Below, one piece after another: positions 15,080 through 64,000 of a stretch of DNA of 64,000 nucleotides. Made by a program: the position numbers and the translations under genes. Origin of the DNA: Tubulanus polymorphus (Eukaryota > Animalia > Nemertea); NCBI RefSeq assembly GCF_964204645.1, contig NC_134025.1, positions 26,516,299-26,580,298 on the forward strand, in the 5' to 3' direction. The notes below the pieces were generated by a model. The model was given only the letters and a program-made list of their open reading frames with translations. It was not told the origin of the DNA and made no database searches. The first letter of the stretch is position 1; every line of letters begins with the position of its first letter.

Positions 15080-16381
15080 TCATAATGTAGCCAAAATCCG
15101 AGTAAATGATATGAATAAAACAAGGATTGTCTGTCCAACTCCATAAACTAAACAATAAAGTGGCGCCATTGTAAATCCAGATGAGCGGTAGACTCCTGCT
15201 ATTACAGCACCTGAGTAAGAGATCAGAATACACAGTGAGAAATACAGTCAAACTTCGTTTAAAATTAGGCTATACAAAAATGATACCTTGTTTCTCCTAA
15301 TCGGCAGGGTCGTTTTGTAAAATGCAATTAAATTTGTACTCAGTTCATTCCTATAACAATGTAATGTACATGGTAGATAGGCGGCCAGCCGGGTCAACTT
15401 ATAAGCAAAGGAGAAACGAGGTATGACTTTTTCAGCCTTATCACAATATTTTTTGTGCAAATTTGTATTTCTAACACTTATAGAAATACAGTCAACTCCC
15501 AATATACCACCACAGTATGGCGGTATAACGGGGGTGTTTTACTTTGTATTCGTATAGAGATGTACATTGAGAAAACCTGGCGGTGGGGGAGGTGGCAGTA
15601 AATGGGAGGGCAGTATATCGCAGGTTGACTATTCATTGCCACAAATGCCTATTCAAAAATACAGGGCAGATAGAAATGTTTAGCCTTATTTATAATAAAC
15701 AGTTTTCATACCATAAAACAGAGTAAAGTCAAATCAAATGAAGTAACTATAATTCGAAGACTTACTGGTGATAACTCCACCAGTTAATGGACTGACTACG
15801 CCCATGACTAGAATTCCGATCGGAATAAATCGACCGATTTTATGATTCTGCAATCGACAGAAAGCAATAGCTGCGGCTATCGTGTGAACAAATATCGACG
15901 AAAACAACGCCCATAGGAACACTTGATACCAAATTTCTGTAGAGAAAAATAAACACAATTAGATAGAGCTTAAAAGTTGTGTAACTGTGGTGTAATGAAT
16001 TCTGATTGATTTACCAGCAAATTTATTTATCAGGTTATTTGGTTGTAGTCCTATGACATTTTTGATTGATCCAAGCTCCCCAATCTGGAAAGAGAAGAGG
16101 TTACACGGATAGGGACACTGGCGCCAAGCTGAAGTCATAATACTTCATACTAATTAAAACACTGACTTTGACTTGACAATGACACTATAATTAGGTAGAT
16201 GTTTTTGTTTGGAAGTGGATATTTTGACTTTGTTTTACCTGTTTAATTAACTACAAACTAACTACTTATCAATCGCTATAAATCAACAATCGCGGGCCTT
16301 TTCGCCTTGTTCGAACTATATTATCAAAGATTTTATTCAATCATCTGAACAGTCAAAAAAAGCACTCAAAGTACTTACCAT
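15080..16381 (-). CDS. TMEM170: Transmembrane protein 170
   Basis: Exons 16381-16379 (ATG only), 16084-16015, 15936-15766, 15210-15080 give EIWYQVFLWALFSSIFVH...HKIGRFI...GGVITSAVIAGVYRSSG...GVGQT...SFTRILATL*, matching the family pattern. The start exon is less certain; an in-frame ATG also exists near 16138. Confidence 0.93.
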
Positions 16382-17145: not shown

Positions 17146-17212
17146 ATGTTGGCAATGTGTGGTGTCTTGATATTCGTTTTATCATTGCTCTACGGAATCG
17201 GCAATGGGCAAG
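17146..17212 (+). CDS. Signal-peptide exon S1 of gene A
   Basis: MLAMCGVLIFVLSLLYGIGNGQ followed by G|gtaag (67 nt, phase 1). Confidence 0.85.
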
Positions 17213-20200
17213 GTAAGAATCGGCGGATTTAGAAAGCGTGGCAAGCAATATTAAATTTTTGGCGCGCTCGTCGTCAGTTTCTACAATATGATTATATGAA
17301 TTTTAGAGATTTTCTTCAAATAAACATTTACCAATTTGCCGCTTAAAATCCTGGTTAATCGAATGTTACGATGTTTGGTGTAATCAAAATTGATATTCGA
17401 TAAACATGTATATCGATACATATGATTAAAAGATACTTTTTGAATACGGTCAAGTTAGGACGCACTATTATCAGAGTGTCGTAAGATTGATCATAATGAG
17501 ATCACACGCATGTATACTCATGAGCCTAAACGGAAAAAAATAACTACCATTGGAAATAAATAGGATTGGTCGTTTCACAACTTGAAAAACAATTCTTATC
17601 ATAAATTGTAGATTTACAAATGACATCATTCACGACAAGTCCAGCCACATTTTACCTGGGTGAAGCACAGAATGCCGTTCCTCTAACGATTAATATAGAA
17701 AATGCCGATTCTTCAAACGTGATTCCTGCTGCAACATCTCCAAATGAGAACTATGTTTTCACATTCCAATTTGCAACGGGTACAACTCAAATTGGTTCAG
17801 TTATTACAATAAGCGGTATTACACTAGCAGAAAGGCAAGTGGGTCTTGCAGCAGCGACTACTCTAACATTTACAGGTGCTACAGCAGATTATCCTGCATT
17901 AGATGCAGTCACTTGTCCAGCAGCTACTCATCTATGTATGACTGTTGCCGAAAGTAGCACCGCTTACACAGATGCAGTAACAACTAATAATCAAGCATGT
18001 ATAACTATAACAAGAGTTTGCCAACCGGGTAAGTGCTTCTATACTTGAATCTCTGATGAATTTTAGAGATAGATTAATTCTAGAATGAATTGATTTTCAT
18101 TTAGACCCAACGGCTTCTACAGGTCCAACATGGGTTGGACTAACTACACTACCACAGGGTACTGCCACATCGGTAACGTTTGACTTACCAATACAAAATG
18201 TAGCTGCATCGGGACAAGGAAATGATATCGTAGCTGCACCTACGGGCACGAAAAACTTTGCTACGGAATTGTATTTTGCGTCAGATAGCGCCGGAGCAAC
18301 AGCAGTTACAGGGAATGTCGCGGCTACAGTGTCATCGAATGATGCCGCAGCTTTACCAGCAGATTCATCGACTACAGTTACTCTTCGAGCGACTGGAACT
18401 GTAACTTTACCATCTGCCATTTGCTATACTACCGACTTCTTGTGTGCCCGTGTGAAAGAAGGAGCTTCGTGTAAATGGGCTGATGCTGGCTCAACAAACA
18501 ATGTAATGTGTTCCTCGATAGTGTCAGTGAAAGCTTGCGATCCTGGTTTGTATAGATTTCTTACATTGTATTTACCGTATGGGATACCCATAAAATGAAC
18601 GGTCTTTGCATTTTCAGACCCTATCACAAAGACATTTACACCACTTAGTACAGCTGAGTATATTCAACCAAACACGTTCACGTTAACATTTGATATCGTT
18701 TTCGAAAACACTGCTCCAGGCGGTAATTCAGATATAGCCTCAGTAACGGCTCCTAATTCCAATTTCAAAGTCGACATAATTTTGTCTAATATTGACATGA
18801 CGACTTGTGCTGCGGGTTCAGTGTCGATTTCATCTACTTCAAATGTTGACCAAACAGTGTCTCTAGCAAGTGGAGCAGTAACAAGTACAATATCTGGCAG
18901 TGCTTCAATAACGGTGCCTTCAGCCACATCAGACTGCAATGATATGCGGTATATTTGCGCAAGGTTGAACGTCCCCGCAACAGCATCTTACACAGATAAA
19001 GACCTCACAAACAACTGTAAATGCGTCGATATATCGGCTCAGAAATCGTGCTTTCCTGGTACGTCTTATGATAATTTTGAGAAAATAATTTAGCCATTTG
19101 CATGAACGTGTTAGTTAATTATGCAGAAGATTTTACACGATTTTATTCATAATAGATCTAAAGCTGAATAGTATAACGGGTACGCCAGTATCAGGAGTTC
19201 TAAATGATGCATCAGCCACAAATTATAAAATCACAACTGCCTTGAAAAATAATGCCGTGAATTCAGCAATCTACTCAGGAAACAATATTCTAGCTACAAC
19301 TGGGACCGATTACAACTACGATATATCGGTTATCATTTCTAATGTTGATATCGGTGCTGGTGGAACTGATACTCTTGGACATTCTGCAATATCTATTTCA
19401 TCATATACAACACCAGCGCAAAGACAAACAGCTTTGGCAGCTCAGGCAACTACGTCGATCGTTGATATCGTCATGAGTATAACGATTGACCCGGCTTACT
19501 GTGCGAATGCGCTGTATTTATGTGCAACTGTGTCACGAGGTACCAACGCGAATTTCCCCACGGAAACAATCCTTGCAAACAATGCCCAATGTAAAGATAT
19601 ATCAGCAACTTCAGATAAAACATGTACACCAGGTAAGTACATTGTACGGCGAAAAGTCATTTTATCACAGTTATGAAATGACTTATGACTGGCGTGTGTA
19701 GTCCGTTGTCATTGCCGAATGTATGAATAATACAAAAGGTATCTTATTCATTTTTAGATCCTGTTATAAATACATTCACAGTATCATCGGCTCATAATTT
19801 TATTACTGGAGTTACTGTAGCTTCCGCCGCATTTGACATAACAATTGAGAACAGTGTCACTTCAAATGCTGATATAGCGGCTGCAACAGGAGGCAATATT
19901 AATTTCAAAACGAACCTGATTCTTGCTAGTGCTGATATGGTGACATGTACTGCAGGATTTACAAGTACAGTTTCAACGGTCAGTAGTCAAGTAGCACTAG
20001 CATCAGGAGCCACCACATCAGTAATCTCAGCTACAGGATCAGTAACAATGCCAACTGTAACAGCGGATTGTAACAATGCTAACTTTCTATGCGCGCAACT
20101 AGTAGCTGGAACTGGAGCAACTTATACAGATGGTGACACTACGAATAATTGCAAATGCGCGGATATAACTGCACAGAAATCCTGTTTCCCAGGTCGTATA

Positions 20201-23200
20201 ACATCTCTAATTACCCAGAAGTTGTTGCTCAGTTGTCTAAAAACATATCCTAGTTTAAACCGTCTTGAATTTCAGATATTGATGTTCTATCCATTGTGTC
20301 AAATGGCCCTTTGACTGCTGGAGAGAAAATAAATGATCAATCAGCCATTGATTATCAATTCAACCTTAATTTGAAAAATGTTGCAACAGCGGGTCTAGGA
20401 AATCACATCTTACAGGCTACTGGTGCAAGTGATTACAACTATGTAGTGACCGCATATCTGTCAGATAACGATGTCAGAGGTGGAACTGCTGATACTTTGT
20501 CACTTGGAAATATCGCCTCATTGACTTATACTTCCGGATCAGCATCAACGGAAAGAAAAGCAGCAATGGCAGCCCAGGCTACGCATTCATTAACATCGAT
20601 AAATATCAACTATCAGATACCTGATTTAACGAAATGTTTGACCGTCACATATTTATGTGCTACTGTTACTCAAGGAACAAACGCGCAATATGCAGCAGAA
20701 ACAGTAACAACTAATAATGTTCAATGTGTTGATATCAGTGCTGATATACAATGTAGTGCAGGTATGATAAACTGAAGTCATGCTTGAAGAAGAATGTTTT
20801 AATGACTTTCTAATGGTACCATTATTTTTGTTACAGATCCAGTGATCAAGACGTTCACTCCACTTTCCACAGCGGTGTACATTCAACCTAACACGTTCTC
20901 ATTGACATTTGATGCTGTCTTTGAAAACACTGCTTCAGCAGGACACACTGACATTACGGCAGTAACAGCTCCTAATTCTAACTTCAAAGTCGACTTAATC
21001 CTGTCTAATATCGATATGACAACGTGTACTGCGGGTTCAGTCTCAATTTCTTCTACATCAAATGTTGACCAAATTGTTGCCCTTTCGAGTGGAGCCGTTA
21101 CTAGTACAATATCCGGTAGTGCGTCAATCACAGTGCCTTCAGTCACCGCTGACTGTAATGATATAAGATACGTTTGCGCAAAGTTGAATGTACCATCAAC
21201 TGCATCATATACAGATAGGGATCTCACAAATAACTGCAAATGTGTCGATATAACAGCCCAGAAATCCTGCTTTCCGGGTGCGTTCTAATTGGATTTAGAT
21301 AATGTTTTGAATCAATTGAGAGGTCAACCAGCTTGGAATAATTTGATCGATATTTCTTGATATTTTAGATTTAAAGATGACCAGTATAACAGGTGCTCCA
21401 GTATCTGGAACTCTAAATGACGCATCTACAACAAGTTATAAGATCACAACAGCCTTGAAAAATAATGCAGTTAATACGGCAGCTTACTACGGAAATAACA
21501 TCCTCGCCACGACTGGGACCGATTACAACTACGACATATCAGTTATCATTTCTAATGCTGATATCGGTGCTGGTGGAACTGATACTCTTGCACATTCTGC
21601 AATTTCTATTTCATCATATACAACACCAGCTCAAAGACAAACAGCTTTAGCAGCTCAGGCAACTACGTCAATCGTTGATATCGTCATGAGTATAACGATT
21701 GACCCGGCTAAATGTGCGAATGCTCTGTATTTATGTGCAACTGCGTCACAAGCTGCCAACGCAAAGTTTGCGGCTGAAACCATTCTAACAAATAACGCTC
21801 AGTGTAAAGATATATCAGCAACGGCGGATAAAATATGTACACCAGGTAATTTCATATGAATATTCGTGATAGTCGATACACATATCCTTTTCACACATAA
21901 CTCAATGTTCTAATCGACTTGATTTCAGATCCTATCATCAAAACATTCTCAGTAGCATCGACGAATCATTTTATCACTGGAGTCGCTGTAGCTGCCGCAG
22001 CGTTTGATATTACATTTGAGAATAGTGCTACTACAAATGCTGATATAGCAGCTGCGACAGGAGCAAATATCAATTTCAAAGCAAACCTCATTCTTGCTAG
22101 TGCTGATATGGTGACATGTACTGCAGGATTTACAAGTACAGTTTCAACTGTCAGTAGTCAGGTAGCACTAGCATCAGGGGCTACCACAGCCACAATTTCA
22201 GCAACTGGATCAGTAACAATGCCAACTGTAACTGCGGACTGTAACAATGCTAACTTTCTATGTGCGCAACTTGTGGCCGGAACTGGTGCAACTTATACAG
22301 ATGGTGACAATACGAATAATTGTAAATGCGCGGATATTACTGCGCAGAAATCATGTTTTCCAGGTAAAATCGATTTATGCACTGATAATTGGTAAACATC
22401 TTGTGTGACTTCAATCGTATGTCATAAACTGTAACTACATGTAAATACCAATATACAGTTGAAGAAATATATCGGCATGTATACCTCATGGAAAAATAAA
22501 TTCGCATAGAATGATTCCTTTGTAGATATCGACGTGGTGGCAATCGTGTCTAATGGTCCCGTGACTGCTGGGGAAAAACTGAATGATCAATCAGCCATTG
22601 ATTATCAATTCAACCTTAATTTGAAAAATGTTGCAACAGCTGGTCTAGGAAATAATATCTTACAAGCTACTGGTGCAAGTGATTTTAACTATGATGTGAC
22701 CGCATATCTGTCAGATAACGATGTCAGAGGTGGAACTGTCGATACTTTGGCACTTGGCAATATCGCCTCATTGACTTACACTTCAGCATCAGCATCGACG
22801 GAAAGAAAAGCAGCAATGGCAGCCCAGGCTACACATTCATTAACATCGATAAATATCAATTATCAGATACCTGATTTAACGAAATGTTTGACAGTCAAAT
22901 ATTTATGTGCTACTCTTACCCGAGGAACAAACGCGCGATATGCAGCAGAAACAGTTACAACTAATAATGTTCAATGTGTTGATATCAGTGCTGATATACA
23001 ATGTAGTGCAGGTATGATAATAAAAGCCACCCCTGAATCAATTCTTCCACCCATCCCGAATGATGACCCTGAACTAGCAAAAAATTATTCAATATTGTTT
23101 TTACAGATCCAATAATCAAGACGTTCACTCCACTTTCCTCAGCGGTGTACATTCAACCTAACACATTCTCGTTGACGTTTGATGTTGTTTTTGAAAACAT

Positions 23201-26200
23201 TGCTTCAGCAGGACACACTGATATAACGGCAGTAACAGCTCCTAATTCGAACTTCAAAGTCGACTTAATCCTGTCTAATATCGATATGACAACTTGTTCT
23301 GCGGGTTCTGTCTCAATTTCCTCGACTTCAAATGTTGACCAAACTGTTGCTCTTTCGAGTGGAGCCGTTTCTAGTACAATATCCGGTAGTGCATCAATCA
23401 CAGTGCCTTCAGCCACATCAGACTGTAATGACATGAGATATGTTTGTGCAAAGTTGAACGTCCCTGCAACAGCATCTTATACAGATAAAGACCTTACAAA
23501 CAACTGTAAATGCACCGACGTATCCGCACAGAAGTCTTGCTTTCCTGGTGGGTTTAAACAAATCAAAGGCCGTTCAAATTCTATAACTTTTTACATCCAT
23601 TAATTTATGCATCGACATGAAAATGATTAAGTTTATATTTCTGCTTTATATGTTTACTTCATCTTTGTAGATATTCAAATGACCAGTATAACAGGTGCTC
23701 CAGTATCTGGAACTCTAAATGACGTATCAGCTACAAATTATAAGATCACGACAGGTGTAAAAAATAATGCAGTAAATACAGCAGCTTACTATGGAAATAA
23801 TATCCTCGCCACGACTGGGTCCAATTACAACTACGATATATCAGTAACCATTTCTAATGTTGATATCGGTGCTGGTGGAACTGATACTCTTGGACATTCT
23901 GCAATATCTATTTCATCATATACGACACCAGCACAAAGACAAACAGCTTTGGCAGCTCAGGCAACTACGTCGATCGTTGATATCGTCATGAGTATAACGA
24001 TTGACCCGGCTAACTGTGCGAATGCACTGTATTTGTGTGCGACTGTATCTCGAGGAACCAACGCCAATCTTCCTGCGGAAACCATTCTCACAAATAACGC
24101 TCAATGTAAAGATATATCAGCAATCTCTGATAAAATATGTACACCAGGTATTTAAGGATACAGGGAATAACTGACAAATGTTGTATGTTTTATTCTAGAT
24201 ATATTGTTTTATTGTAGATAAAATTCAGATTTGGTTTCTTTTTAGATCCTATCATAAAAACCTTCTCAGTCGCTTCGACGAATCATTTTATCACTGGAGT
24301 CGCTGTTGCCGCCGCAGCGTTTGACATTTCATTTGAAAACATCGTTACTACAAATGCTGATATAGCAGCTGCAACAGGAGGCAATATTAATTTCAAAACG
24401 AACCTGATTCTTGCAAGTGCTGATATGGTGACATGTACTGCAGGATTTACAAGTACAGTTTCAACTGTCAGTAGTCAAGTAGCACTAGCATCAGGGGCTA
24501 CCACGTCAGTAATCTCAGCGACCGGATCAGTAACAATGCCAACTGTAACAGCGGACTGTAACAATGCTAAGTACCTATGTGCACAACTTGTAGCTGGAAC
24601 TGGTGCAACGTATACTGACCGGGATTCCACGAATAATTGTAAATGCGTCGATTTAACTGGACAGAGGTCATGTTTCCCAGGTATAAGCCTCGTTTTTATA
24701 TCATTGGTTTTACTATATCCATCCGCTTAAGTAATGGTGCTATTCAAATACCTTTACCTATTCATTTTAGATATCGATGCTGTAAGTATAACCTCCAACG
24801 GTCCGGTCCATGCTGGAGAGAAACTGAATGACTATTCAGCAATTGATTACAGATTCAGTTTAAATCTTCAAAACGTAGCTACAGTTAGCATTGGAAATGA
24901 TATACTACTTGCAACTGGTGCAAGTGATTATAACTATGTCGTGACTGCGTATCTGTCAGATAATGATGTCAGAGGTGGCACTGCCGATACTTTGTCATAT
25001 GGTAATATCGCTTCATTGACTTATACCTCAGCATCAGCGTCGACGGAAAGAAAAGCAGCAATGGCAGCCCAGGCTACACATTCATTAACATCGATAAATA
25101 TCAACTATCAGATACCTGATTCAGTGAAATGCGTGACAACAAAGTACTTATGCGTAACCGTCGATCGAGGGACAAATGCACAATACGTAGCGGAATCAGT
25201 TACAAATAATAATATTCAGTGTTTAGATATAAGTGCCGATATCTATTGTAATGCAGGTAAATAGGCGTGATAATACATGTAACCTTCTTGATACTGATGT
25301 TTCGATGAGTTTGTTGACCGCCGCCAGTCTAAGGGGTATCAGCTTGTTTTCAACTCGTATTATTTTAAGACAATTGCTTTAGTAATCTTTTATGCTAGAC
25401 AGTTCAATACTTGAAATAGGTTGTTTATGAGCCATATATTTCGCAATTACTTCGTCTTCGTCGCAAGGCATTTTGTCAATAGAATTATACATACCTCCCT
25501 GAATGTAAATGACTTTTCAACAAAAGATATTTGTCGACCGTAACTGCTCTAATCTGGTTTTCGTGACCACTCACTAATTCCACCGAAGCGTTGAAAAATA
25601 ATCTAATCTTTGGCCATTAGTAAACATTTCAGCGAATGAGTGAATTGTTTTGCGCCTATGTTACATATATTTCTGACCAAGAGCGGCGGTTTTCATCGAG
25701 AAAGGGAATAACTAAATGTCTGATAGACCTCACTTTCAAAATATCTTTGTTATGGATTAGGGAAAATACAATGGGGAAAATAGTTTTGGGTTTGCTATGG
25801 ATTTGCTCATTTTTAATGAGTACGGTGATCGGACAAGGTACGTAAGTTTCTTGGGTGATTATCCAAGTAGGATGATCAGCGTTTCTGTTCATCGAGAAGC
25901 TATTATATGTGACTGGTCGGCAAAGGCAGCTTCTTGCGACCGAATATCTTTTCTTAAGAAAATTTCTAAATTGATTCTGAAATGGTAATCCTTGCCATCC
26001 ATGCTAATATATGACGACTTTTTAGGGAAATGAACCAATGATAAAAGCTTGCTAAAATTAATTGTAATATTCTTCAATTGGTTGGTAATGATATAGATAG
26101 CGAAGACTTGATTCCATTCCATATTTGTAGATTTGGAAATGACTTCGTTCACAACAAATCCAGAAACATTCTACCTGGGTGAAGCACAGAATACTGTTCC

Positions 26201-29200
26201 ACTCACGATTAATATAAGAAATGCCGATTCGTCAAACGTGATTCCTGCTGCAACATCTCCACATGAGAACTATGTTTTCACATTCCAATTTGCAACGGGT
26301 ACAACTCAAATTGGGCCAGCAATTACTATAAACGGTATTACACTAGCAGAAAGACAAGCGGGTCTTGCGGCAGCGACTACTCTAACATTTACAGGTGCTA
26401 CAGCAGATTATCCAGCACTGGATGCTGTAACATGTCCAGCAGCTACTCATCTATGTATGACTGTTGCCGAAAGTAGCACCGGTTACGTAGATACACTTAC
26501 AACCAATAATCAAGCATGTATAACTGTAACTAGAGTTTGCCAACCGGGTAAGTGCTTCTAAATAATGAATCTGCGATTTTTGTATCTACAAGAACAAAGA
26601 AGTTCTACTGGGAATTCATCTTTTCCAGATCCAACGGCATCTGCGGGTCCAACTTGGGTTGGACTTACGACCTTGACCGCAGCAACAGCCACAGCGGTTA
26701 CGTTTGACTTACCAATACAAAATGTAGCTGCATCTGGACAAGGAAATGATATCGTAGCTGCACCTACGGGCACGAAAAACTTTGCTACGGAATTGTATTT
26801 TGCGTCAGATAGCGCCGGAGCAACAGCAGTTACGGGGAATGTCGCGGCTACAGTGTCATCGAATGATGCCGCAGCTTTACCAGCAGATTCATCGACTACT
26901 GTTACTCTTCGAGCGACTGGAACTGTAACTTTACCATCTACCATTTGTTATACTACTGACTACTTGTGTGCCCGTGTGAAAGAAGGAGCTTCGTGCAAAT
27001 GGGCTGATGCTGGCTTAACAAACAACGTTAAATGCTCATCGATAGCGTCAGTGAGAAACTGCAACCCAGGTATCATCGAAGGCTTTAACGCTATTTTGTG
27101 AGGATTGATTGTGTAATACCTTTCTGAAAACTGCTTTGATATTTCAGATCCAGTAATTAAGACGTTCACTCCACTTGCATCAGCGCATTATGTCCAGCCA
27201 AATACGTTCACTTTAACATTTGATGTCGTCTTTGAAAACACAGCTCCAGGTGGTAATGCAGACATAGCCTCGGTGACAGGTCCTAACTCAAATTTCAAAG
27301 TTGATATAATATTGTCAGATATTGACATGACCACTTGTACAGCGGGTTCGGTGTCGATTTCATCTTCATCAAATGTTGACGAAACGGTGGCTTTAGCAAA
27401 TGGAGCGGTAACTAGTACAGTATCTGGCAGTGCTACGATTGCAGTACCTTCAGCTTCATCTGATTGTAATAATATAGCATATGTTTGTGCTAAGTTGAAT
27501 GTTCCTTCAACAGCCTCTTATACGGATAGAGACCTCACAAACAACTGCAAATGTGTCGATATTGTAGCACAAAAGTCCTGTTTCCCTGGTAAAGACATTT
27601 TTTTCTAACATTTTAATATTCCCAACTTGGGAAATAACTCAAATCACACATTTTGATAAAATATTTTATTCTGTATTGTATAGATGTCAAGATGAACAGC
27701 TTAACAGGTGCTCCAGTATCAGGAACACTAAATGATGCATCCGCCACAAATTATAAGATTACATCTGTCCTGAGAAATAATGCTGTAAATACGGCAGCTT
27801 ACTACGGAAATAATATTCTGTCCACGACTGGGTCCGATTACAACTACGATATATCAGTTATCATTTCTGATGCTGATATCGGTGCTGGTGGAACTGATAC
27901 TCTCGGACATTCTGCAATATCTGTCTCATCATATACAACACCGGCACAAAGACGAACAGCTTTAGCGGCCCAGGCAACTACGTCGATCGTTGATATCGTC
28001 ATGAGTATAACGATTGACCCAGCTAAATGCGCGAATGCTCGATATTTATGTGCAACTGTATCACGAGGTACCAACGCAAATTTCCCCGCAGAAACAATCC
28101 TCACAAACAATGCACAATGTAAGGATATATCAGCAACCTCAGATAAAACATGTACACCAGGTAAGAAAAATAGATCATTTTAACAAATACATTTCTTTTT
28201 GATCAACAATTGATATTTCGAGAGTGAGCAATTTTTCAGTCAAGTGGGGATTACTATTGGTTATGTTATTGAAATTCACAACGAGATAAACTCATCAAAT
28301 TCATCTCCATTCACAAAAATGATGTCATTCTCAATTTCAGATCCCGTGATAACTACCTTTTCCATTGCATCAACGGACCGTTTTATTACTGGAGTTGCAA
28401 CTACTACGTCATTCGATACTAAATTTCAGAATATCGCAACAACTAATGCAGATATATTGGCTGCTACTGGGGGTAATATCAACTTCAAAACTAACATATT
28501 CTTGGCAAACGCTGATATGTTGATATGTACATTACCGGGAATAACAACTTCTGTATCCACTGTAAGTAGTCAGGTAGCAATTGCATCAGGAGCCACTACG
28601 GCAACCATCGGAGCAACAGCATCAATAACAATGCCAACTGTAACAGCGGACTGTAACAATGCTAATTATTTGTGCGCGCAACTTGTGGCTGGAACTGGTG
28701 CAACTTATACTGACGTGGACGCTACAAACAATTGTAAATGTGTTGATATAACTGCGCAGAAATCATGTTTTCCTGGTGAGTTTTAGCAATTTACTAATTG
28801 TTGCATCTAATCTACCATTAAGAATTATTGAAACAACGGTATGTATGAATTACCTCTATTTATTCAAGATATCGATGTGGTGGCAATAATATCAAACGGA
28901 CCTGCGACGACTGGTCAAAAACTGAATGACCAATCAGCAATTAACTACAAATTCAGCTTGAACCTCAAAAACGTTGCGACGGCGGGTCTAGGAAATGATA
29001 TCTTGGAAGCTACTGGAACCACCGATTATAACTACGTAGTGACTGCATATCTGTCAGATAATGATGTCAGAGGTGGCACTGCCGATACATTGTCACTTGG
29101 TAATATCGCTTCATTGACTTATACCTCAGCATCAGCATCAACTGAAAGAAAAGCAGCAATGGCAGCTCAGGCTACACATTCATTAACATCGATAAATATC

Positions 29201-32200
29201 AACTATCAGATACCTGATTTAACGAAATGTCGAGCAGTCACATATCTATGTGCTACTGTTACTCGAGGAACAAACGCGCAATATGCAGCAGAATCTGTTA
29301 CAACTAATAATGTTCAGTGTCTTGATATCAGCACTGATATACAATGTAGTGCAGGTATGATCATTGAAAATACCTCTTGGCTTTTTAATTTTGTTTGAGG
29401 GATGACTACCTATATTAAGATAGCCATAACCTTCCTTTTCCAGATCCTACCATCAAGACATTTACCCCGCTATCGTCAGCAATATACATTCAACCAAATA
29501 CGTTCTCATTGACGTTTGATGTTACTTTTGAAAACGCAGCTTCTGCAGGACACACTGACATTACGGCAGTAACAGCGCCTAATTCTAACTTCAAAGTCGA
29601 CTTAATCCTTTCTAATATCGATATGACAACGTGTACTGCGGGTTCAGTCTCAATTTCGTCTACATCAAATGTTGACCAAACTGTTGCTCTTTCGAGTGGA
29701 GCCGTTACTAGTACAATATCCGGAAGTGCATCAATCACAGTGCCTTCAGTCACCGCTGACTGTAATGATATGAGATATATCTGCGCTAAGTTGAATGTTC
29801 CTACTTCTGCGTCATATACTGATAATGACCTCACAAACAACTGCAAGTGCGTCGATATAACAGCTCAGAAATCCTGCTTTCCTGGTATGTTAGTTTATGG
29901 AATTATTGTGGAAATCTTTGTTTTATTTCAGCTCTTTAGTTCTATAAGTAACATATAAGTGTTTCTTTTTAGATTTAAAGATGACCAGTGTAACAGGTGC
30001 TCCAGTATCTGGAACTCTAAATGATGCATCAGCCACAAATTATAAGATCACAACTGCTCTGAAAAATAATGCAGTAAATACGGCAGCTTACTACGGAAAT
30101 AATATCCTCGCCACGACCGGGTCCAATTACAACTACGACATATCAGTTATCATTTCTAATGCTGATATCGGTGCCGGTGGAACTGATACTCTTGGACATT
30201 CTGCAATATCTATTTCATCATATACGACTCCGGCACAAAGACAAGCAGCTTTGGCAGCTCAGGCAACTACGTCGATCGTTGATATCATCACGAGTATAAC
30301 GATTGACCCAGCCAAATGTACAAACGCTTTGTATTTATGTGCAACTGTGTCTCGAGGAACCAATGCAAATTTCCCTGCAGAAACCATCCTCACAAATAAT
30401 TATCAATGTAAAGATATATCAGCTACCTCGGATAAAATATGTACACCAGGTACTTTCATATGAATATTCTTGATAGTCGATACACATTCCCTTTTCATAC
30501 ATAGCTTGATGTTGTTATGGACTATATTTCAGATCCTATCATCAAAACCTTCTCAGTCGCATCGACGAATCATTTTATCACTGGAGTCGCTGTTGCTGCC
30601 GCAGCGTTTGATATTACAATTGAGAACAGTGTCACTATAAATGCTGATATAGCAGCTGTAACAGGAGGAAATATTAATTTCAAAACGAACCTCATTCTTG
30701 CAAGTGCTGATATGGTGACATGTACTGCAGGATTTACAAGTACAGTTTCAACTGTCAGTAGTCAGGTAGCATTAGCATCAGGAGCTACCACATCACCAAT
30801 TTCAGCAACTGGATCAGTAACAATGCCAACTGTAACAGCAGACTGTAACAACGCTAATTATTTGTGCGCTCAACTTGTTGTTGGGACTGGTGCATCTTAT
30901 ACAGATTTGAACACTACAAATAATTGTAATTGTGTCGATATATCTGCGCAGAAATCATGTTTTCCAGGTATACCAGAAAGTCATTGTATTGTTAAATAGT
31001 CGTTAGTTACTTTGTTTTGTAAATTTTCTGAATTCGGTTCGATAGATGGCCTTAACCACGTTTGGCGATTTACAAGGAATCCCGTGTAATTGCGTTAAAT
31101 GTTGTGTTGGGTTATTTGCTCCTTAACGTTTGATATCTACTAACATTAACACACTTTCTTCATTTTAGATATCGATTTGGTGGACATAAATTCTAATGGT
31201 CCGGTAACGCCTGGAGAAAAGCTTAATGATCAGTCAGCCATTAACTATAAATTCAACCTCAACATAAAAAACGTCGCCACCTCTGGTCTAGGTAACGACA
31301 TTTTGGAAGCTACGGGTGGAAGTGACTTTAACTATCAGTTGACTGCGTATCTGTCGGATAATAATGTACGAGGTGGCACTGCTGATACTTTGTCACTTGG
31401 TAATATAGGCTCATTGACTTATACATCTCCGAATGAACGAAAAGTAGCACTGGCCGCTCAGGCTACGCATTCCATCACATCGATAATCATCAACTACCAG
31501 ATACCTCATGCAGTAAAATGTTTATCCATCACTTATCTATGTGTTACTGTCGATCGAGGAACAAATGCACAATATGCGGCAGAAACTGTTACAACTAATA
31601 ATGTCCAATGTCTAGATATAAGTGCTGATATTCAATGTCAGGCAGGTCAGTTAATCGTGCACATCTTCAAATTCGGCAATAACGAAAACTTATAAATGCA
31701 TGTATATACATCTATGACTGCTGAATTGCATTTCAGATCCAATAATCAAGACGTTCACTCCACTTTCCACTGCGGTGTACATTCAACCAAACACATTCTC
31801 ATTGACATTTGATGTTGTTTTTGAAAACACTGCTTCTGCAGGACACACCGATATAACGGCAGTAACAGCTCCTAATTCTAACTTCAAAGTCGACTTAATC
31901 CTGTCTAATATTGATATGACAACTTGTTCTGCGGGTTCAGTGTCAATTTCTTCAACTTCAAGTGTTGACCAAACTCTAGCGTTGGCAACTGGAGCAGTGA
32001 CCAGTACAATATCTGGTAGTGCTTCTATTACGGTACCTTCAGCTACATCCGACTGTAATGACATTAGATATGTTTGTGCAAAGTTGAACGTCCCTGCAAC
32101 AGCATCATATACAGACAACGACCTTACAAACAACTGCAAATGTGTCGATATATCAGCACAAAAATCCTGTTTTCCAGGTATGTCTCGTACCCTGGTTAAC

Positions 32201-35200
32201 ATGTATTTCTTTTTAGATTCTTAATTTCGTTACCAGGCGATACTGAGTGTTCTAACAGATTAGATACGTATTAATGATTTAATACCTGAATTCTAAGTGC
32301 GTTTTGCTTCTTTTGCTCTGTAAATGTGCATTAATACTTAAAGAATAAACCATTGGTTTTTTTTGAAACCATGAACAGCATATTTCATATAAACATAAAC
32401 GTGCTAAGTGATTTCAATTGTATATCGTCTTGTAGATTTCAGGATGACCAGTATAACAGGTGCTCCAGTATCGGGAACACTAAATGACGCAACTGCTACA
32501 AGTTATAAGATTACGACAGCCTTGAAAAACAATGCAGTAAATACGGCAGCTTACTACGGAAATAACATCCTCGCCACGACTGCGTCCAATTACAACTACG
32601 ATATATCAGTAATCATTTCTAATGCTGATATCGGTGCTGGTGGATCTGATACTCTCGGACATTCTGCAATATCTGTTTCATCATATACAACACCAGCGCA
32701 AAGACAAACAGCTTTGGCAGCTCAGGCAACTACGTCGATCGTTGATATCGTCATGAGTATAACGATTGACCCGGCTAAATGCGCGAATGCTCTGTATTTA
32801 TGTGCAACTGTGTCTCGAAATACAAATGCGAATTGTGCTGCTGAAACCATTCTAACAAATAACGCTCAATGTAAAGATATATCAGCAACTTCAGACAAAA
32901 CATGTACCCCTGGTTCGTATAATTCTTGAATCGAACTCTCTGATATTACATCATCGGAAATAGAACGATAAACACACTCAAACGTGGTGAACGGATAATA
33001 AGATAAAAACCCACTACCTACAAATTAAAAGAATTTAAAAACAAGAAATTCATTTACTCGAACAATCTAAAAAAATTTTGAACTTCGAATATTTTATAAA
33101 TTTAGATTGTTCGAATAAATGAATTTCTTGTTTTTAAATTCTTCTTATTTGTAGATAGTGGGTTTTTATCTAATTATCATCGGAAATATTTATATGTGTA
33201 TACATATGATTCTTTTCGTGTATTCATACTTTTTTTATAATAGATCCTATCGTCCACACGTTTACGATTCCATCAACCGATCTCTTTATAACTGGGGTTG
33301 CTGTCACGCCGTCAATCACCATCAAATTCCAGAATACTGCAACTACAAACGCAGATATATCTTCTGCAACTGGTGCAAACGTAAATTTCAAAACGAATCT
33401 GATTTTGGCAAACGCTGATATGTCCACGTGCACCCTACCAGGAATAACGAATACAATATCTACCGTGAGTAGTCAAGTGGCGCTTGCATCAGGAGCGACC
33501 TCATCCGCCATTTCAGCAACTGGATCGGTAACGATGCCAACTAGTATCCCGGATTGTTACAATGCAAACTACCTATGTGCTCAACTTGTGGCCGGCACCG
33601 GTGCAACTTACACAGATGGTGACACTACAAATAATTGTAAATGCGCAGATATTACTTCACAAAAGTCGTGTTTTCCGGGTAAGTCAACTTAGACCTTCTA
33701 TAAAAATTTGAGATAAATTCATGTATATATATCATGTATTGGCATCAGTCATACATAGTTTTGATTTGCACTAACAGATATCGACGTGGTGGCAATCGTG
33801 TCTAATGCTCCTGTCACTGGTGGAGAAAAACTCAATGATCAATCTGCTATCAACTATAAATTCAACCTCAATCTACAAAATGTCGCGACTGCAAGTTTAG
33901 GAAACGACATCTTACAAGCTACTGGTGCGAATGATTTTAACTATGATGTGACAGCGTATCTGTCCGATAACGATGTCAGAGGTGGAACTGCTGATACTTT
34001 GGCACTTGGTAATATCGCCTCGTTGACTTACACATCAGTATCAGCCTCAACTGAAAGAAAAGCAGCAATGGCAGCCCAGGCTACACATTCATTAACATCG
34101 ATCAATATCAACTATCAGATACCTGATGCAACAAAATGTTTGAGTGTACGATATCTATGTGCCACTGTTGGTCGAGGAACGAATGCAAAATATGCTGCAG
34201 AAACAGATATTACTAATAACGTCCAGTGTCTTGATATCAGTTCTGATATAAAATGCAGCCCAGGTCAGTTTACAAGACATTTACCATATTGTGCATTTAT
34301 CCCATGTGAATACTGTTTTATTATGTTAATATAAATTATTGTATAATATTCCAGATCCAGTTATCAAAACATTTACTCCGCTTGCATCAGCTCTCTACAT
34401 CCAACCGAACACATTGGCTTTGTCTTTTGATGTCACCGTAGAGAATACTGCATTAGGTGGAAACTCGGATATAGCCTCAGTAACGGCTCCTAATTCTAAT
34501 TTCAAAGTCGATGTCATTCTGTCTAATATTGACATGACGACTTGTGCTGCTGGTTCAGTTTCAATTTCATCTACTTCGAATGTTGACCAAACTGTGTCTC
34601 TAGCAAGTGGAGCAGTAACAAGTACAATATCTGGAAGTGCTTCAATCTCAGTACCTTCTGCCATATCAGACTGCAATGAAATGAGATACGTTTGTGCGAA
34701 GTTAAACGTCCCTGCAACAGCATCTTATACAGATAAAGACCTCACAAACAACTGCAAATGTGTTGATATATCAGCACAGAAATCCTGCTTTCCAGGTATA
34801 TGATGATCCAATGATCTAACGTGCATATCGGCCTCTTCATAAATATGAATCATAATAAACATTACCCGGTGATAATTTTTTACAGATGTAAAAATGACAT
34901 CTATAACTGGCGTTCCAGTATCGGGGACACTTAATGACGCATCAGCCACAAATTATAAGATCACAACCGTCTTGAAAAATAATGCAGTAAATACGGCTGC
35001 ATATTACGGAAATAATATCCTCGCAACGACTGCGTCCAATTACAACTACGATATATCAGTAATAATTTCTAATGCTGATATCGGTGCTGGTGGAACTGAT
35101 ACTCTTGGACATTCTGCAATATCTATTTCATCATATACGACACCGGCGCAACGACAAACAGCTTTGGCAGCTCAGGCAACTACGTCGATCGTTGATATCG

Positions 35201-38200
35201 TCATGAGTATAACGATTGACCCGGCTAAATGCGCGAATGCACTGTATTTGTGTGCAACTGTATCTCGAGGAACCAACGCAAATTATCCTGCGGAAACCGT
35301 GCTCACAAACAACTATCAGTGTAAAGATATATCAACAACCTCGGATAAAACATGTTCCCCTGGTTAGTGAGGAAAGACTTTTTTATTATCGTACATTTGC
35401 TATATGCTGATACTATTTTGAAACAAAATAAGCATAATGGCAAATTGTTTTGTTCATGATGATTATCTGACATGTATATAAATTATTTCAGATCCAATTG
35501 TGAGTTTGTTTACAGTTTCATCTACTGATCGTTTCATCACCGGAGTTGCAACCACCACGTCATTTGACACGAAATTCCAAAATATCGCAACAACTAATGC
35601 AGATATATCGGCTGCAACTGGGGGTAATATCAACTTCAAAACTAACATATTCTTGGCAAACGCTGATATGTTAATATGTACATTACCGGGAATAACAACT
35701 TCTGTATCCACTGTAAGTAGTCAGGTAGCAATTGCATCAGGAGCCACTACGGCAACCATCGGAGCAACAGCATCAATAACAATGCCAACTGTAACAGCGG
35801 ACTGTAACAATGCTAATTATTTGTGCGCACAACTTGTGGCTGGAACTGGTGCAACTTATACTGACGTGGACGCTACAAACAACTGTAAATGTGTCGATAT
35901 TACTGCGCAGAAATCATGTTTTCCTGGTGAGTTTGTACGGTACTGAATGATAAACCTTTTCATATTTCAATATGATGCATTATTTTCGTTACCTTTTTTG
36001 AAAGATATCGATGTAGTGAGCATAGCCGCCAATGGACCTGTGACGACTGGGGAAAAACTGAATGATCAAACAGCAATTAACTACAAATTCAGCCTGAATC
36101 TCAAAAACGTTGCGACGGTGGGTCTAGGAAATGACATCTTGGAAGCTACTGGGACCACTGATTATAACTACGTAGTGACTGCATATCTGTCTGATAATGA
36201 TGTCAGAGGTGGCACTGCTGATACTTTGTCTCTTGGCAATATTGCCTCATTGACTTACACCTCAGCATCAGCATCAACGGAAAGAAAAGCAGCAATGACA
36301 GCCCAGGCTACACATTCATTGACCTCGATAAATATCAACTATCAGATACCTGATGCAACAAAATGTTTGACAGTGTCGTATCTATGTGCTACCGTTGGTC
36401 GGGGAACAAACGCGCAATATGCAGCAGAAACAGTTACAACTAATAATGTTCAATGTGTAGATATACGTACTGTTATACAATGCAGCCCAGGTTTGTTCTA
36501 AATACCACTCATGCGTCTAACATTCCTTATCCGATAATTTTATGTTTTTTTATTTTACTGAACCTTTTTTTAGATCCAATCGTCCAAGCATTTACACCGA
36601 CGTCAGCAGTTGTCTTTCAACGAGGAGTGGCAGTATCGACGAGTTTCACGATTGTTCTTAAAAATGATGCACCTGCCGGTCACACTGATATACAAGCAGC
36701 ATCTGGAAGTGGAGTGAATTTTGATGTTTCTTTGTATTTGAGTGATGTAGATCTTTCTACTGGTGCCAACCCAACCGTTTCTTTGCCCTTTACGAGTGAT
36801 GTTTCTAAAGGTGACGCTCTGGCGCGAGCTGCTCTTCTTCCAGCTACTGGATCAATCAGTGGTACCTCAACAGTTACTATGCCAGATGCATCAACTTGTA
36901 ATAGTATCAAATTCCTGTGTGCTCATACCGCTACTGGAACTGGAGCGACCTTTACGGACAGAGATTTAACAAATAACTACAAGTGCACCAATATTGTTGC
37001 TCAAAAGTCTTGTTATCCAGGTAATGGTAAGAACTTCTTCAGCTTTCGTCCCATTTCCATGTAGCTGTACTGAATGTTTTGTTTCTATCCTCTCATATCT
37101 AGATATCAATATAGCAAGTCTGACTGGCGCTGCTTTAAATGTTGGTGAATTGATCAACGATAATCTACCTATAGATTTCCGATTAACCATAGGTCTTCAA
37201 AATGTAGCCCCTACGAAATCAAATTACGGCAATGACATTTACGCAATTTCTGGTATTGGCAATTACAATTATGACGTTACAGCATATGTCTCTAATGCTG
37301 ATGTTGGAGCAGGTGGTATCAACTCACTGTCCAATCATGCAATTTCACCGTTAACTTACACAACGGCATCCCAAAGACAAGCTGCATTAGCAGCCGGTGC
37401 GACACATTCGTTGACGAATATTGATACAAATTATCAGATCCCAAGTGCAATTTGTATAGATGCAACTCATCTATGCGTTCAAGTATCTGCTGGAAATAAT
37501 GCAAAATTCACCGAAGATGTGCTGACTAATAATATCAAGTGTATATCCCTTGGAACAACGAAAGTGTGCACAGCAGGTAACGTAACCATAGATGAAGTAT
37601 CCTGCAATGTAATAATTCCGAGAAAAATTGTTTAACCTTTGTCATTTTTGTAATTCTATAGATTGGGACTGTATTAGTTTTGCTGATGATAATGATCCGA
37701 TATACAAAGACAGCCTAGCTACACCAATAACCTTTACGGCCAATGTAAAACACATCGGTCCAGATCCACCGGCGCGAAATATCCCATCAGTTGTAGGAAC
37801 AACAAGTAACTACATATCCTTTCTTTTTTCTTATTTTCGGGGGTATAACTTAAATCTTTACATTTAACTTCATCTTTGTCGCAGGTACAAATTTCGTTCT
37901 CGAGATTCGACTAGCTCAATTTGATATTCGTGCAGTTGGTATAGCATCTGATACATTGAATCTGATTCAGACATCAGCTCCCACAACTGCAGATGATCTG
38001 AAAGTTGGCATGAACTACGGGGAGACAATAGCGTTCACTGGAACGGCCACTATAACTGTGCCATCTGCACAATGTGACAATATAATATACATGTGTGCAA
38101 AAATAGGACAAGGTACAGCGACAGGGCTTTATAACCTCGCGTCGAATGATTGGAGTTGCACGAATATAAAAAACAGAGTCAGCTGCGCTATAAGTATGTT

Positions 38201-41200
38201 ATCACAAATGTTGTGTGTATCAAAAAGTCATTGAAAATAATTCTCGTTTTCATTGATATAGATATGTTGCATTACAGATGCTCAAATACCAGCGTTCACA
38301 AATCCACCGGAACTGACACTGGGTGTTGCTCAAACTGGGGTAGCCCTAGACATTAATGTTAAGAATGCCGCTACCACGGACAATATTGCTGCTGTAACAG
38401 GAACTAATGAAAACTTCGTCTTTACGTATACCTACGAACAAGAAACAGCACCGGGGGTATACTCAGTAATATCGACGCTTACAATTAGTGGACTGACTGT
38501 CGCAAAACGCCAGGTTGGTATAGCGGCTACAGCGACTCACACATTTACTGGAGCTTCCGTTGATTTTCCAGCTTTAACGACGTATACCTGTCCCCTTGTG
38601 ACACATGTCTGTGTAGAAGTACAAAAAGGGACGGGAGCGTCATACATTGAGTCCGCTACCACTGATAACAGAAAGTGTACCCAAACGCAGAGGATGTGCT
38701 TTCCAGGTAATGAATCATTATTGATGGTGATAAAATCAAATCTTTAAACAAAGGCGTTAATGACGTTATCTTTCATTTTAGACCCTACGTGGAAGGCACC
38801 AGCACCTAACAATCCAACTTGGGTAGGACTGGCAAATATTCCACAAGCCACAGCTACTACGGTTACATTCGATGCCATCATATTCAATACGGCTCCGACC
38901 GGACTGGGCAACGATATTCTTGCTGCCACAATGGGGGACAAAAATTATGCCCTCGAACTATACTTTGCATCTGATAGTAGTGGATCTTCATCATTAACAA
39001 GTAATTTTACTGCAACCCTCAGTACAAATGATCAGGCAGCTTTACCGGCTGATAGTGGGACAACATCTGTAACGATCCGAGCATCAGCAACTGTGACACT
39101 TCCTACAGCTAATTGTCCTCAGGCCGATTATCTTTGTGGCCGAATAAAACCAGGAACTGGTCCAAAATGGGTCGACAATGTGTTAACTAATAACGTTTCC
39201 TGTTCCACAATATTGTCCGTCAGAGGTTGTAATCCAGGTAAGCCCTAAATTGGGTTATGATTTATTTCATTTTCAAAGAATGTAATATGTTGATTGATGT
39301 AGATGCATGTTCCATTCTACAAATATAATTTTCAGATCCAATTGTGAATTCATTTACGGCACCAACAGACACGTTTGTAAGATCAGTTAATGTTCCAACC
39401 TCAGGATTTGATGTCATTTTACAAAATATAGCACCCGGTGGAAACTCAATCATAACAGCTGCTTCTGCGGGTAATGTTAATTTCAACATCACTTTGACTT
39501 TGACGGACGTTGATTTAAGCACAGGAGCGACAGCAACAGTTTCCGTAGTTTCAACAACCACTATCAATAAAGCGGATGCATTAGGAAGCGCCAATTCATT
39601 GTTGCCTACTTCTGGTAATTTTGCGGGAACAAGTTCTATTACGATGCCGGATTCAGTAAACTGCAACAAAATCAAATTTATTTGCGCTAGAACCGAAGAA
39701 GGAACTGGTGCAACGTTTACTGATGTTAATTCAAACAACAATTACAAATGCAGCAATATAGTTGCGCAGAAAACATGTTTCCCAGGTAAAATTATAGATT
39801 ATTCAGCACCATCAATTGTTCTCCAATGTTATCATTTTTGATCATATAACTACAAACTATTCCGTTTATAGTTCTATGATTTAGTTTTCTGTCAGATTTT
39901 GAAGCGAGCATTACTGATAAGTGGTGGATTATTTGCCTTTGCCTTTGTAGATGTCGACATTACGAGTCTATCGGCGTTAGGACCAGTCACCGGTGGTGAT
40001 AAACTAAATGATCGTGCAGCAATTAACTACAAATTCACTGTTAATTTACAAAACGTTGGAGCAACAACCGCCGATTACGGCAACAACATTCTAGCAGCAA
40101 CCGGTGGAAACTCTAATTACGAAGTAAAATGGTACATCTCCGATGCCGATGTCAGACCCGGTGGTGGGACGAACACTTTGGGTATTGCGCAAAGTGGAGT
40201 TGTGACTTACACAACTCCAGCGCAGACACAAGCGGCGATGGCAGCTGGAGCAACGACTTCCATAGTTGACGTCCAAATAAATTACATGATCCCACAAGCG
40301 AAGTGTCCTAATGCCGCTTACTTATGCGCATACGTGCAGGCTCACAGTACCGCGAAATACATCGAAACACCATTAACGAATAATTTGTATTGCTCTAGCA
40401 TACTGGCTGATAAGAATTGCGCACCAAGTAAGTTTCTACATCTAAGTTCCCTTCATCTAAAAGATTAAGTTCCAATACATACATTATACATCTACCTAGA
40501 CAATGTCTCGACATACAGTTTCAAATGTTTCATTTAAGTTTTTACCAATCTAAATGGAGCTGTATCTGTACCAGAAAATACGACATCAGGTTCCGATATA
40601 TTTAACGCCACAGCCACTGACGGCAATGGTGATACACTTACTTATTCAATCCAAGCTGGAGTCGGGCCATTCACTATCAATACTGCCAGTGAGTGTGAAA
40701 TATCCACATATTTTCATACAGTCATTTTTGATAATAACTTCTCTAATTGACTACGTGTTATTCATTTTAGCTGGAGATATCTCGTTAACGGGAACTATCA
40801 ATTTCGAGGTTGATCCTACAACATACTCTTTAGGCGTTTATGTTACTGACGGAGTCTACAGCGTCACTGATAAAGTATTGACGATTACAATCACAGATTC
40901 GAATGATCCTCCAGTTGCAAGCAATTTAGCACCCAATGTAGCTAACGCGGCAGCTACTGTTACCTTTGCGGAAGATTATACTGGTCAGGTATTTGATGCT
41001 GCACATACAGATGAAGATTTGCCGGCACAAACAATCACATATTCTATTCAAAGCGTTTCATCAGGCGGTACCAATGTTGCGAGTTATCCATTTTCAATTG
41101 ATGGAGCCAATGGTAAGCATCAGTTTAGTTCTAAACATGTATATGAACAGTATTTCCATATGTTTCTAGATGATTATGTATGTTTTATTTTCTATACAGG

Positions 41201-57660: not shown

Positions 57661-64000
<6,340 letters not shown>

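What the first reader, a model, noticed from the sequence alone, without database searches (positions are those of the whole stretch)
17612..40427. Unrecognised ~150-aa domain with a CARDB/DUF11-like D/E-x4-NN signature
Seen: all 13 domain types share an alternating beta-strand pattern and a C-terminal consensus of roughly P-x(2-5)-C-x(5-6)-[LVIM]-C...[DE]-x4-NN-x2-C-x(6-10)-C-x-[PA] (NN is degenerate in type I). Most also have an N-x(6-11)-[DN]-I-x(6-9)-N[FY] segment. Known: bacterial CARDB and DUF11 Ig-like domains end with similar E/D...NN motifs. Inference: a disulfide-stabilised, possibly Ca-binding Ig-like beta-sandwich with heavy Thr/Ser O-glycosylation potential.
Basis: partly seen in the sequence, partly recalled or inferred. 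Interest (0 to 1): 0.75.

Follow-up and report, generated by a model that had tools for sequence, protein, structure and literature searches.

The report
Unnamed animal CARDB-related exon module
A ribbon-worm gene stacks 39 copies of an unnamed ~150-amino-acid module, nearly all one exon each, in front of cadherin repeats and a predicted membrane anchor; the module also occurs in other marine invertebrates, is predicted to fold like an immunoglobulin domain, is likely a distant relative of a microbial cell-surface domain (CARDB), and likely binds calcium to stiffen a long surface stalk.

Summary
Observation confirmed. The window is animal DNA (Tubulanus polymorphus by exact protein match). 17612-40427 holds 39 modules of 13 types in 40 phase-1 exons; an inverted paralog holds 23 more. 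The full consensus fits 55 of 62 modules and 0 of 12,400 shuffles; copies are under purifying selection. No Pfam or NCBIfam family fits. A profile finds 429 representatives; the 17 named of 20 looked up are nemertean, annelid, echinoderm, hemichordate and amphioxus proteins, with the module beside cadherin, EGF, Sushi, VWC, LDLa or avidin domains. AlphaFold2 gives a confident beta-sandwich (pLDDT 94); fold matches are Ig-like but unspecific (best Z 7.6). The CARDB link is indirect: window modules score no better than reversed controls, but hemichordate homologs match prokaryotic CARDB at 90% HH probability and two amphioxus homologs pass Pfam's CARDB cutoff. 60 of 62 modules begin with an Asp built across the splice junction, a candidate calcium ligand with the D/E..NN motif, as in LOXL2. 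Calcium binding, disulfides, function and isoforms are inferred. Mucin-like O-glycosylation is not supported. Verdict: unnamed animal variant of a known domain kind.

The parts
17146..17212 (+). First exon, predicted signal peptide SP1 (22 aa), phase-1 donor
   Evidence: sequence
17612..25256 (+). 14 module exons, order A B C D E F C D E F C D E F (2,125 aa); the last exon has an intact GT donor, and reads through to a stop 2 codons later if unspliced
25771..25837 (+). Internal second signal-peptide exon SP2 (22 aa) with ATG and phase-1 donor, inside the only long intron (874 nt): alternative first exon or start of a second gene
26131..36490 (+). 18 module exons, A B then (C D E F) x4
36574..40427 (+). 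7 single-copy modules G H I J K L M; type I is split into exons 37662-37805 and 37885-38193
40539..43465 (+). Exons for about 7 cadherin repeats (5 stretches by Pfam in the paralog P0001); boundaries approximate
44052..44129 (+). Predicted transmembrane helix
   Evidence: hydropathy of the paralog
44230..44505 (+). Last exon, cytoplasmic tail ending in IPMDNW and stop; start approximate
45211..49330 (-). Inverted paralog: cadherin repeats, predicted transmembrane helix (45619-45696) and tail, also ending in IPMDNW; upper boundary approximate
49363..56853 (-). Inverted paralog: 13 modules A-M once each; J, K, L, M are letter-for-letter in RefSeq XP_074662363.1 (P0001)
56955..57012 (-). Internal signal-peptide exon SP3 of the inverted paralog, in an 807-nt intron
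57661..64000 (-). Upstream array of the inverted paralog: partial D at the window edge, then E F C D E F C F C D (10 complete modules); a module-end remnant near 59500-59560

Best explanation
The repeat is an unnamed extracellular module of marine invertebrates, encoded almost always as one phase-1 exon, predicted to fold as an Ig-like beta-sandwich and likely descended from the same stock as the prokaryotic CARDB domain; here it is stacked up to 39 times in front of cadherin repeats and a predicted membrane anchor, where it likely forms a long, calcium- and disulfide-stiffened surface stalk. Shown: exon structure, motif, purifying selection, homologs in five animal phyla in varied domain contexts, absence from Pfam/NCBIfam. 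Predicted: the beta-sandwich. Inferred: (1) the four invariant Cys form two disulfides, the last Cys lying 2-3 residues before the next module; (2) one Ca2+ per module is held by the N-terminal Asp, made across the splice junction, together with the D/E-x4-N-N loop, as LOXL2 holds its calcium; (3) symmetric phase-1 exons let the module be duplicated and shuffled next to cadherin, EGF, Sushi, VWC, LDLa, avidin and PKD-type domains; (4) in Tubulanus the array works as a spacer or adhesive rod of very roughly 100-180 nm (domain length of about 4-4.5 nm recalled), its length set by exon duplication and possibly by choice between two signal-peptide first exons.
For: Exons and motif. Selection. Signal exons, cadherins, membrane segment. 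Family: 429 representatives at E<=0.001, 186 at 1e-10; 17 of 20 looked up carry names, all animals; partner domains. In 102 of 107 short unnamed hits the last Cys is followed within 1-2 residues by G/S and mostly divergent tail sequence, as expected if a phase-1 donor is read through in other genomes too. Fold: pLDDT 94.2, pTM 0.87; all top VIA rows are Ig-like sandwiches, including 2l0d (Z 7.3, rmsd 3.4, 103 aligned), CARDB 3idu (Z 6.6, 3.8, 101) and LOXL2 5ze3 (Z 6.6, 4.0, 126; first aligned pair model residue 1 to residue 550). CARDB bridge: A2 profile vs hemichordate modules 99.7%; hemichordate modules vs 121 prokaryotic CARDB-type domains 90.2%, E 1.6e-6, 105 columns from the first Asp to the NN; reversed and cadherin controls under 0.5%. 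With the selection motif removed the CARDB HMM still scores four hemichordate proteins 22-47 bits against at most 3.3 for reversed or shuffled copies. Amphioxus P0080 and P0158 pass Pfam CARDB (35.2 and 35.5 bits, cutoff 22.7), and P0080 was hit by the window profile at E 4.6e-19. Ligand-type residues: D/E138 in all, N144 in 98%, N143 in 67% of alignment A2; junction Asp in 60 of 62. LOXL2 calcium ligands are Asp549, Leu550, Glu722, Asp724, Asn727, Asn728 (PMC5899467, passage).
Against: The window's modules score no better than their reversals with the CARDB HMM (mean 3.1 vs 4.2 bits). Direct profile comparison is weak: 28.6%, 0.4%, 5.9%; the echinoderm-type subfamily gives 1.8%. The hhalign E-values are for one pair, so 1.6e-6 is about 0.04 over a Pfam-sized library. 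The CARDB set was chosen by a motif containing E..NN; without it the hemichordate match drops to 35%. HMM sums run over several similar repeats. Pfam CARDB gives P0004 only E 9 and four other hemichordate-type proteins nothing; in P0080 no single stretch passes alone and the best is the C-terminal motif. No fold match reaches Z 8 and CARDB rows are tied with glycosidase, TRAP and Spo0M domains; Foldseek has none at E<=0.001. The ligand equivalent to Asp724 is D/N/E in only 28 of 62 modules; types I and J lack NN, and J starts with Asn. Nothing tests the stalk function.
Confidence: 0.62

Rival explanations
1. The module is an animal Ig-like sandwich whose D/E..NN motif resembles CARDB by convergence or only at clan level; the amphioxus and hemichordate matches reflect common beta-strand patterns.
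For: No direct signal for window modules; fold matches tied among many Ig-like families; four invariant Cys, whereas 69 of 121 CARDB-type domains have no Cys.
Against: Colinear 105-column match at 90% through hemichordates, motif-free scores far above controls, and two amphioxus proteins over Pfam's cutoff.
Confidence: 0.2
2. The modules are specific binding domains (homophilic, lectin-like or microbe-binding) rather than spacers, and the 13 types give a recognition code.
For: Types differ strongly (14-61% identity) yet each is kept at 70-97% among copies for 10 of 13 types; small hemichordate proteins consist of 2-4 modules plus an anchor; H, I and J diverge between paralogs (55, 56, 80%). 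CARDB stands for cell adhesion related domain (PMC8416519, passage).
Against: C-D-E-F copy number varies from 1 to 4 per array, which suits a spacer; residues conserved across the family are structural or ligand-type; DUF11 repeats were judged stalk or stabilising elements in two papers (passages).
Confidence: 0.3
3. The upstream arrays are separate secreted genes (SP1 plus 14 modules; the minus-strand counterpart) that end at a read-through stop and serve as mucus, tube or matrix proteins, beside two membrane-anchored cadherin-like genes. This concerns gene structure and is compatible with the module reading.
For: Each downstream array restarts with its own signal-peptide exon and the A-B start modules, on both strands; stops follow the last upstream exons.
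Against: The last upstream exon keeps a GT donor in the right phase for the next A exon; no AATAAA/ATTAAA between 25256 and 25770 on +, though three occur in the matching minus-strand intron.
Confidence: 0.4
4. A mucin-like, heavily O-glycosylated repeat.
For: Thr 14.2% and Ser 9.5% of module residues.
Against: Confident folded model; Thr/Ser lie in strands; Pro only 3.8%; homologs have less Thr+Ser.
Confidence: 0.07

Closest known systems
CARDB (Pfam PF07705, E-set clan CL0159)
   Same: Predicted Ig-like sandwich; N-terminal Asp-hydrophobic start, conserved Asn after strand 2, C-terminal acidic..NN loop in the same order; tandem use in surface proteins; amphioxus homologs pass the Pfam cutoff.
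   Different: About 150 instead of 100 aa, four invariant Cys, animal, exon-bounded; no window module hits PF07705.
DUF11 / CLIPPER (PF01345)
   Same: E-set sandwich repeated in stalks of fibrillar adhesins, sometimes with cadherin-like domains and disulfides (PMC12617251, passages).
   Different: No Pfam hit; no conserved first-strand Lys for the Lys-Asp-Asn isopeptide bond; that survey judged eukaryotic hits false positives.
Lysyl oxidase catalytic-domain core (LOXL2, 5ze3)
   Same: Sandwich core (Z 6.6, 126 aligned); calcium site made from an N-terminal Asp and an E-x-D-x-x-N-N loop, the same spacing as the module's D/E-x4-NN.
   Different: No conserved His (0.6% of residues), so no copper site or enzyme activity is implied; 8% identity.
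Non-classical cadherins and cadherin-repeat surface proteins
   Same: About 7 cadherin repeats, one membrane segment, short tail.
   Different: N-terminal array of 13-39 non-cadherin modules; no classical cadherin cytoplasmic domain in Pfam.
Exon-shuffled class 1-1 extracellular modules (EGF, Sushi, VWC, Ig, FN3; class recalled)
   Same: One module per symmetric phase-1 exon, found beside these modules in homologs.
   Different: No Pfam or NCBIfam model in the copies held; no description found in the ten paper searches.

Membership tests
CARDB (PF07705) | Pfam model score above the gathering cutoff | tested here: not met
   0 of 19, 0 of 38 and none listed for 121 members. Met by amphioxus homologs P0080 and P0158, not by P0159.
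CARDB (PF07705) | E-set Ig-like beta-sandwich fold | tested here: inconclusive
   Beta-sandwich predicted; 2l0d Z 7.3 (its CARDB label is recalled) and 3idu Z 6.6 are tied with unrelated Ig-like domains, none at Z 8.
CARDB (PF07705) | N-terminal Asp and C-terminal acidic..NN loop, colinear with the family profile | tested here: met
   Junction Asp 60 of 62, D/E-x4-NN 58 of 62; colinear in profile alignments.
CARDB (PF07705) | Bound metal ion at that loop (3idu is titled as a di-metal complex) | not testable with these tools
   No coordinates or binding data available.
DUF11 / CLIPPER (PF01345) | Pfam match | tested here: not met
DUF11 / CLIPPER (PF01345) | First-strand Lys of the isopeptide triad (not universal in DUF11 either) | tested here: not met
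   Lys within six residues of the start in 26 of 62 modules, at varying positions; no conserved Lys column near the N terminus in A2.
Cadherin repeat (PF00028), for the module itself | Profile match and cadherin linker motifs | tested here: not met
   hhalign 0.27% against a small profile of 7 cadherin repeats; Pfam hits only downstream of module M.
Cadherin superfamily, for the host protein | Tandem cadherin repeats before a membrane segment | tested here: met
   PF00028 E 1.8e-42, 5 stretches in P0001; hits in + strand exons.
Classical cadherins | Catenin-binding cytoplasmic domain | tested here: not met
   No such Pfam family in P0001 at E<=0.1.
Lysyl oxidase catalytic domain | Copper-binding histidines | tested here: not met
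   His is 0.6% of module residues and no His column is conserved.
Mucin PTS region | Unfolded Pro/Thr/Ser-rich tract | tested here: not met

The most novel reading that the evidence does not exclude
An overlooked mobile extracellular module of bilaterians, taken from the prokaryotic CARDB adhesin stock, fitted with disulfides and turned into a phase-1 shuffling exon whose calcium site is completed only by splicing (the Asp codon is split by the intron). In Tubulanus it builds cadherin-anchored rods of up to about 6,900 aa whose length is switched by alternative signal-peptide first exons: an animal counterpart of microbial fibrillar adhesins.
Probability: 0.2. Interest if true: 0.72.

Novelty: new variant of a known kind. 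Interest (0 to 1): 0.5.

Why it matters
It would put a name and a fold on a module that fills large unannotated parts of extracellular proteins in nemerteans, annelids, echinoderms, acorn worms and amphioxus (31 copies in one crinoid protein), and add a member to the short list of exon-shuffled animal modules. If the CARDB link and calcium site hold, it ties an animal surface module to microbial adhesin stalks and to the calcium site of lysyl oxidases, and gives a direct test with single recombinant modules. It does not reveal a new mechanism yet: function is inferred from architecture.

Tried and rejected
No whole genome is held. Word-based homolog searches found only P0001; the search with P0080 residues 1150-1300 found one amphioxus protein and no prokaryote. 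PDB sequence searches: 5 weak unrelated hits for A1 (best a phage coat protein, E 0.0023), none for A2 or P0080. NCBIfam: best E 0.014, nothing consistent. ESM Atlas: CARDB clusters at 0.82-0.88 and an unnamed archaeal cluster at 0.91, with recognition below the reliable level; leads only. Foldseek top row for the better model was TTHA1873 (E 0.0096, TMq 0.30); the paper search gave two passing mentions, not read. Expression: no RNA holder listed; runs X1-X3 cover introns and show no splice joints; X4 laid 0 and 1 contigs, which is no evidence either way. The alignment A2 had no stretch conserved enough for a genome scan, so prokaryotic carriers of this module were not scanned that way. The tree is a quick tree with 28 of 56 inner branches open and no CARDB rows; it says nothing on origin or transfer. 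Iterated profiles broaden with each round, so amphioxus-versus-A2 scores are partly circular. ECM18 as a possible name-bearing member (recalled): one search listing, not read. Earlier findings of this scan: none.
Full report
What is in the sequence. The ORF list shows regularly spaced frames of about 150 codons on + from 17.6 to 40.5 kb and on - from 49 to 64 kb. They are exons of an animal gene. Each starts after an AG and ends before a GT in phase 1, with introns mostly 72-330 nt. On + there are 39 modules in 40 exons (type I is split), in the order ABCDEF-CDEF-CDEF, then AB-(CDEF)x4-GHIJKLM; on - there are 23 complete modules, EFCDEFCFCD then ABCDEFGHIJKLM. After M come about seven cadherin repeats, a membrane segment and a short tail on both strands. 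Modules J-M of the minus gene are letter-for-letter in RefSeq XP_074662363.1 of the nemertean Tubulanus polymorphus, annotated as uncharacterized and starting only at module J.

Observation check. Types I and J both lack NN. Identity is 55-97% within types and 14-61% between. Median dN/dS in types A-F is 0.10-0.23 (pairs with indels were left out for E and F).

Gene structure. Three signal-peptide exons precede the three A modules: 17146-17212, 25771-25837 and, on -, 57012-56955. The second and third lie inside the arrays, in the only introns over 800 nt. Either each strand carries one long gene with an alternative internal first exon (about 6,900 or 4,800 aa on +, plus the tail length of P0001), or a secreted module-only gene lies upstream of a membrane-anchored one. 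Donor and acceptor phases allow the long form; no RNA data were available to decide.

Family. No Pfam or NCBIfam model fits the modules (the Pfam copy has models up to 2025). A profile of 38 of the 62 modules found 429 representatives at E<=0.001, of which 150 were listed. Of 20 looked up, 17 carry names and all are animals: Tubulanus, Dimorphilus (annelid), Anneissia, Diadema, Asterias (echinoderms), Glandiceps, Ptychodera, Saccoglossus (hemichordates), Branchiostoma; three are unnamed. The other 130 listed and 279 unlisted hits have no taxon here. The module occurs alone in arrays with a signal peptide and anchor, or beside cadherin, EGF and Sushi, VWC, LDLa/laminin B/Ig, EGF plus avidin, and PKD domains; a crinoid protein has 31 copies. 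In 102 of 107 short hits the match ends at Cys-x(1,2)-Gly/Ser, which suggests the same exon boundary in other genomes (inferred, their DNA was not seen). Across 121 sequences four Cys are invariant, N55 and D/E138 are present in all that cover them, N144 in 98%.

Fold. AlphaFold2 gave pLDDT 81 for type L with 38 sequences and 94.2 (pTM 0.87) for type M with 121: about eight strands and two short helices. Foldseek found nothing at E<=0.001. VIA-align ranked only Ig-like sandwiches on top, best Z 7.7 and 7.6, none at 8; CARDB 3idu scored 6.0 and 6.6, 2l0d 6.4 and 7.3, LOXL2 6.6. The fold class is clear, the family is not decided by structure.

Link to CARDB. I collected 121 prokaryotic domains from 123 loci matched by a recalled CARDB motif; 70 of the 75 aligned by tool hit PF07705. 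Window modules score no better than their reversals against this set, and profile comparison gives 0.4-29%. Through relatives the link appears: 41 hemichordate modules match the A2 profile at 99.7% and the CARDB profile at 90.2% over 105 columns, with controls under 0.5%; without the selection motif 35%. The motif-free HMM scores four hemichordate proteins 22-47 bits against at most 3.3 for controls, but does not score P0001 or the crinoid protein. Two amphioxus proteins pass Pfam's CARDB cutoff, and one repeat of P0080 matches my CARDB HMM end to end at 25 bits. I put common descent at about 0.75-0.8.

Mechanism. 60 of 62 modules begin with an Asp whose codon is split by the intron; both J modules begin with Asn. 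In LOXL2 a calcium is held by Asp549, Leu550, Glu722, Asp724, Asn727 and Asn728 (PMC5899467, passages read). The module has the same D/E-x4-N-N spacing, and VIA's alignment begins with model residue 1, the residue after the junction Asp, on LOXL2 residue 550 (only range ends are given). So a calcium site that ties the first strand to the last loop is likely, though the Asp724 position is D/N/E in only 28 of 62. With two probable disulfides this would give a stiff unit in seawater. Variable numbers of CDEF blocks suit a spacer; DUF11 repeats are described as stalks of fibrillar adhesins (PMC12617251, passages) and as not needed for aggregation in a methanogen (PMC6759345, passages). Specific binding by some types remains possible.

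Literature. Ten searches (listings and abstract starts) gave no description of this module or of animal CARDB; one search was spoiled by 'cardboard', and only 40 of 99 papers with the word CARDB were listed. PMC8416519 (passages) treats CARDB as a prokaryotic E-set domain. PMC4729200 (passages and two supplementary files) does not mention CARDB or two of the Saccoglossus gene numbers. Subscription papers, bioRxiv supplements and newer Pfam or InterPro releases were not searched, so a name may exist there.

Verdict. A real, unnamed, widespread invertebrate extracellular module; a new variant of the CARDB/E-set kind rather than a filed member. Interest 0.5.

Noticed in passing
window 36574-37020 and 38782-40427 (+) against 52753-53199 and 49363-50970 (-): Patchy homogenisation between the inverted paralogs: exons G, K, L, M are 93-97% identical in DNA (fourfold sites 77/83, 72/82, 68/76, 67/78) and the K-L intron 94%, while H, I, J are 61-79% and most introns about 50%. 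Suggests gene conversion.
   Followed up: partly
window 25771-25837 (+) and 56955-57012 (-): Internal signal-peptide exons inside both module arrays; alternative promoters or tandem genes.
   Followed up: partly
window 44490-44505 (+) and 45211-45230 (-): Both otherwise divergent cytoplasmic tails end in the same six residues IPMDNW, a possible C-terminal binding motif.
   Followed up: no
window about 59500-59560 (-): Remnant of a module end (C-type tail followed by a GT) in a 398-nt intron where D and E are missing from the repeat: a decayed or deleted exon.
   Followed up: partly
window 63580-63775 and nearby: Long (AT)n microsatellite in an intron of the minus gene.
   Followed up: no
window about 900-3450 (+): 3' exons of a gene that looks like Numb (PTB-domain end and NPF-type tail; identification recalled, not tested).
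   Followed up: no
window about 6500-15500: Short frames near 7450-8150 read like a PHD-finger/G2E3-type gene (recalled), with a 414-codon low-complexity frame at 11155-12396.
   Followed up: no
P0001 (XP_074662363.1): The RefSeq model starts at module J and omits modules A-I and the signal exon seen in the window, so the locus is under-annotated.
   Followed up: partly
P0157 (Diadema setosum): Eight modules inserted in an EGF-repeat plus avidin protein, a fibropellin-like layout (name recalled).
   Followed up: no
P0071, P0099 (Dimorphilus), P0061: Three modules sit before PKD-type repeats (Pfam PKD shown for P0061) in proteins of up to 6,071 aa, possibly polycystin-1-like.
   Followed up: no
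P0010 (XP_074650262.1): A more distant Tubulanus paralog with four modules plus cadherins and anchor; its longest contig has the same length as that of P0001.
   Followed up: no
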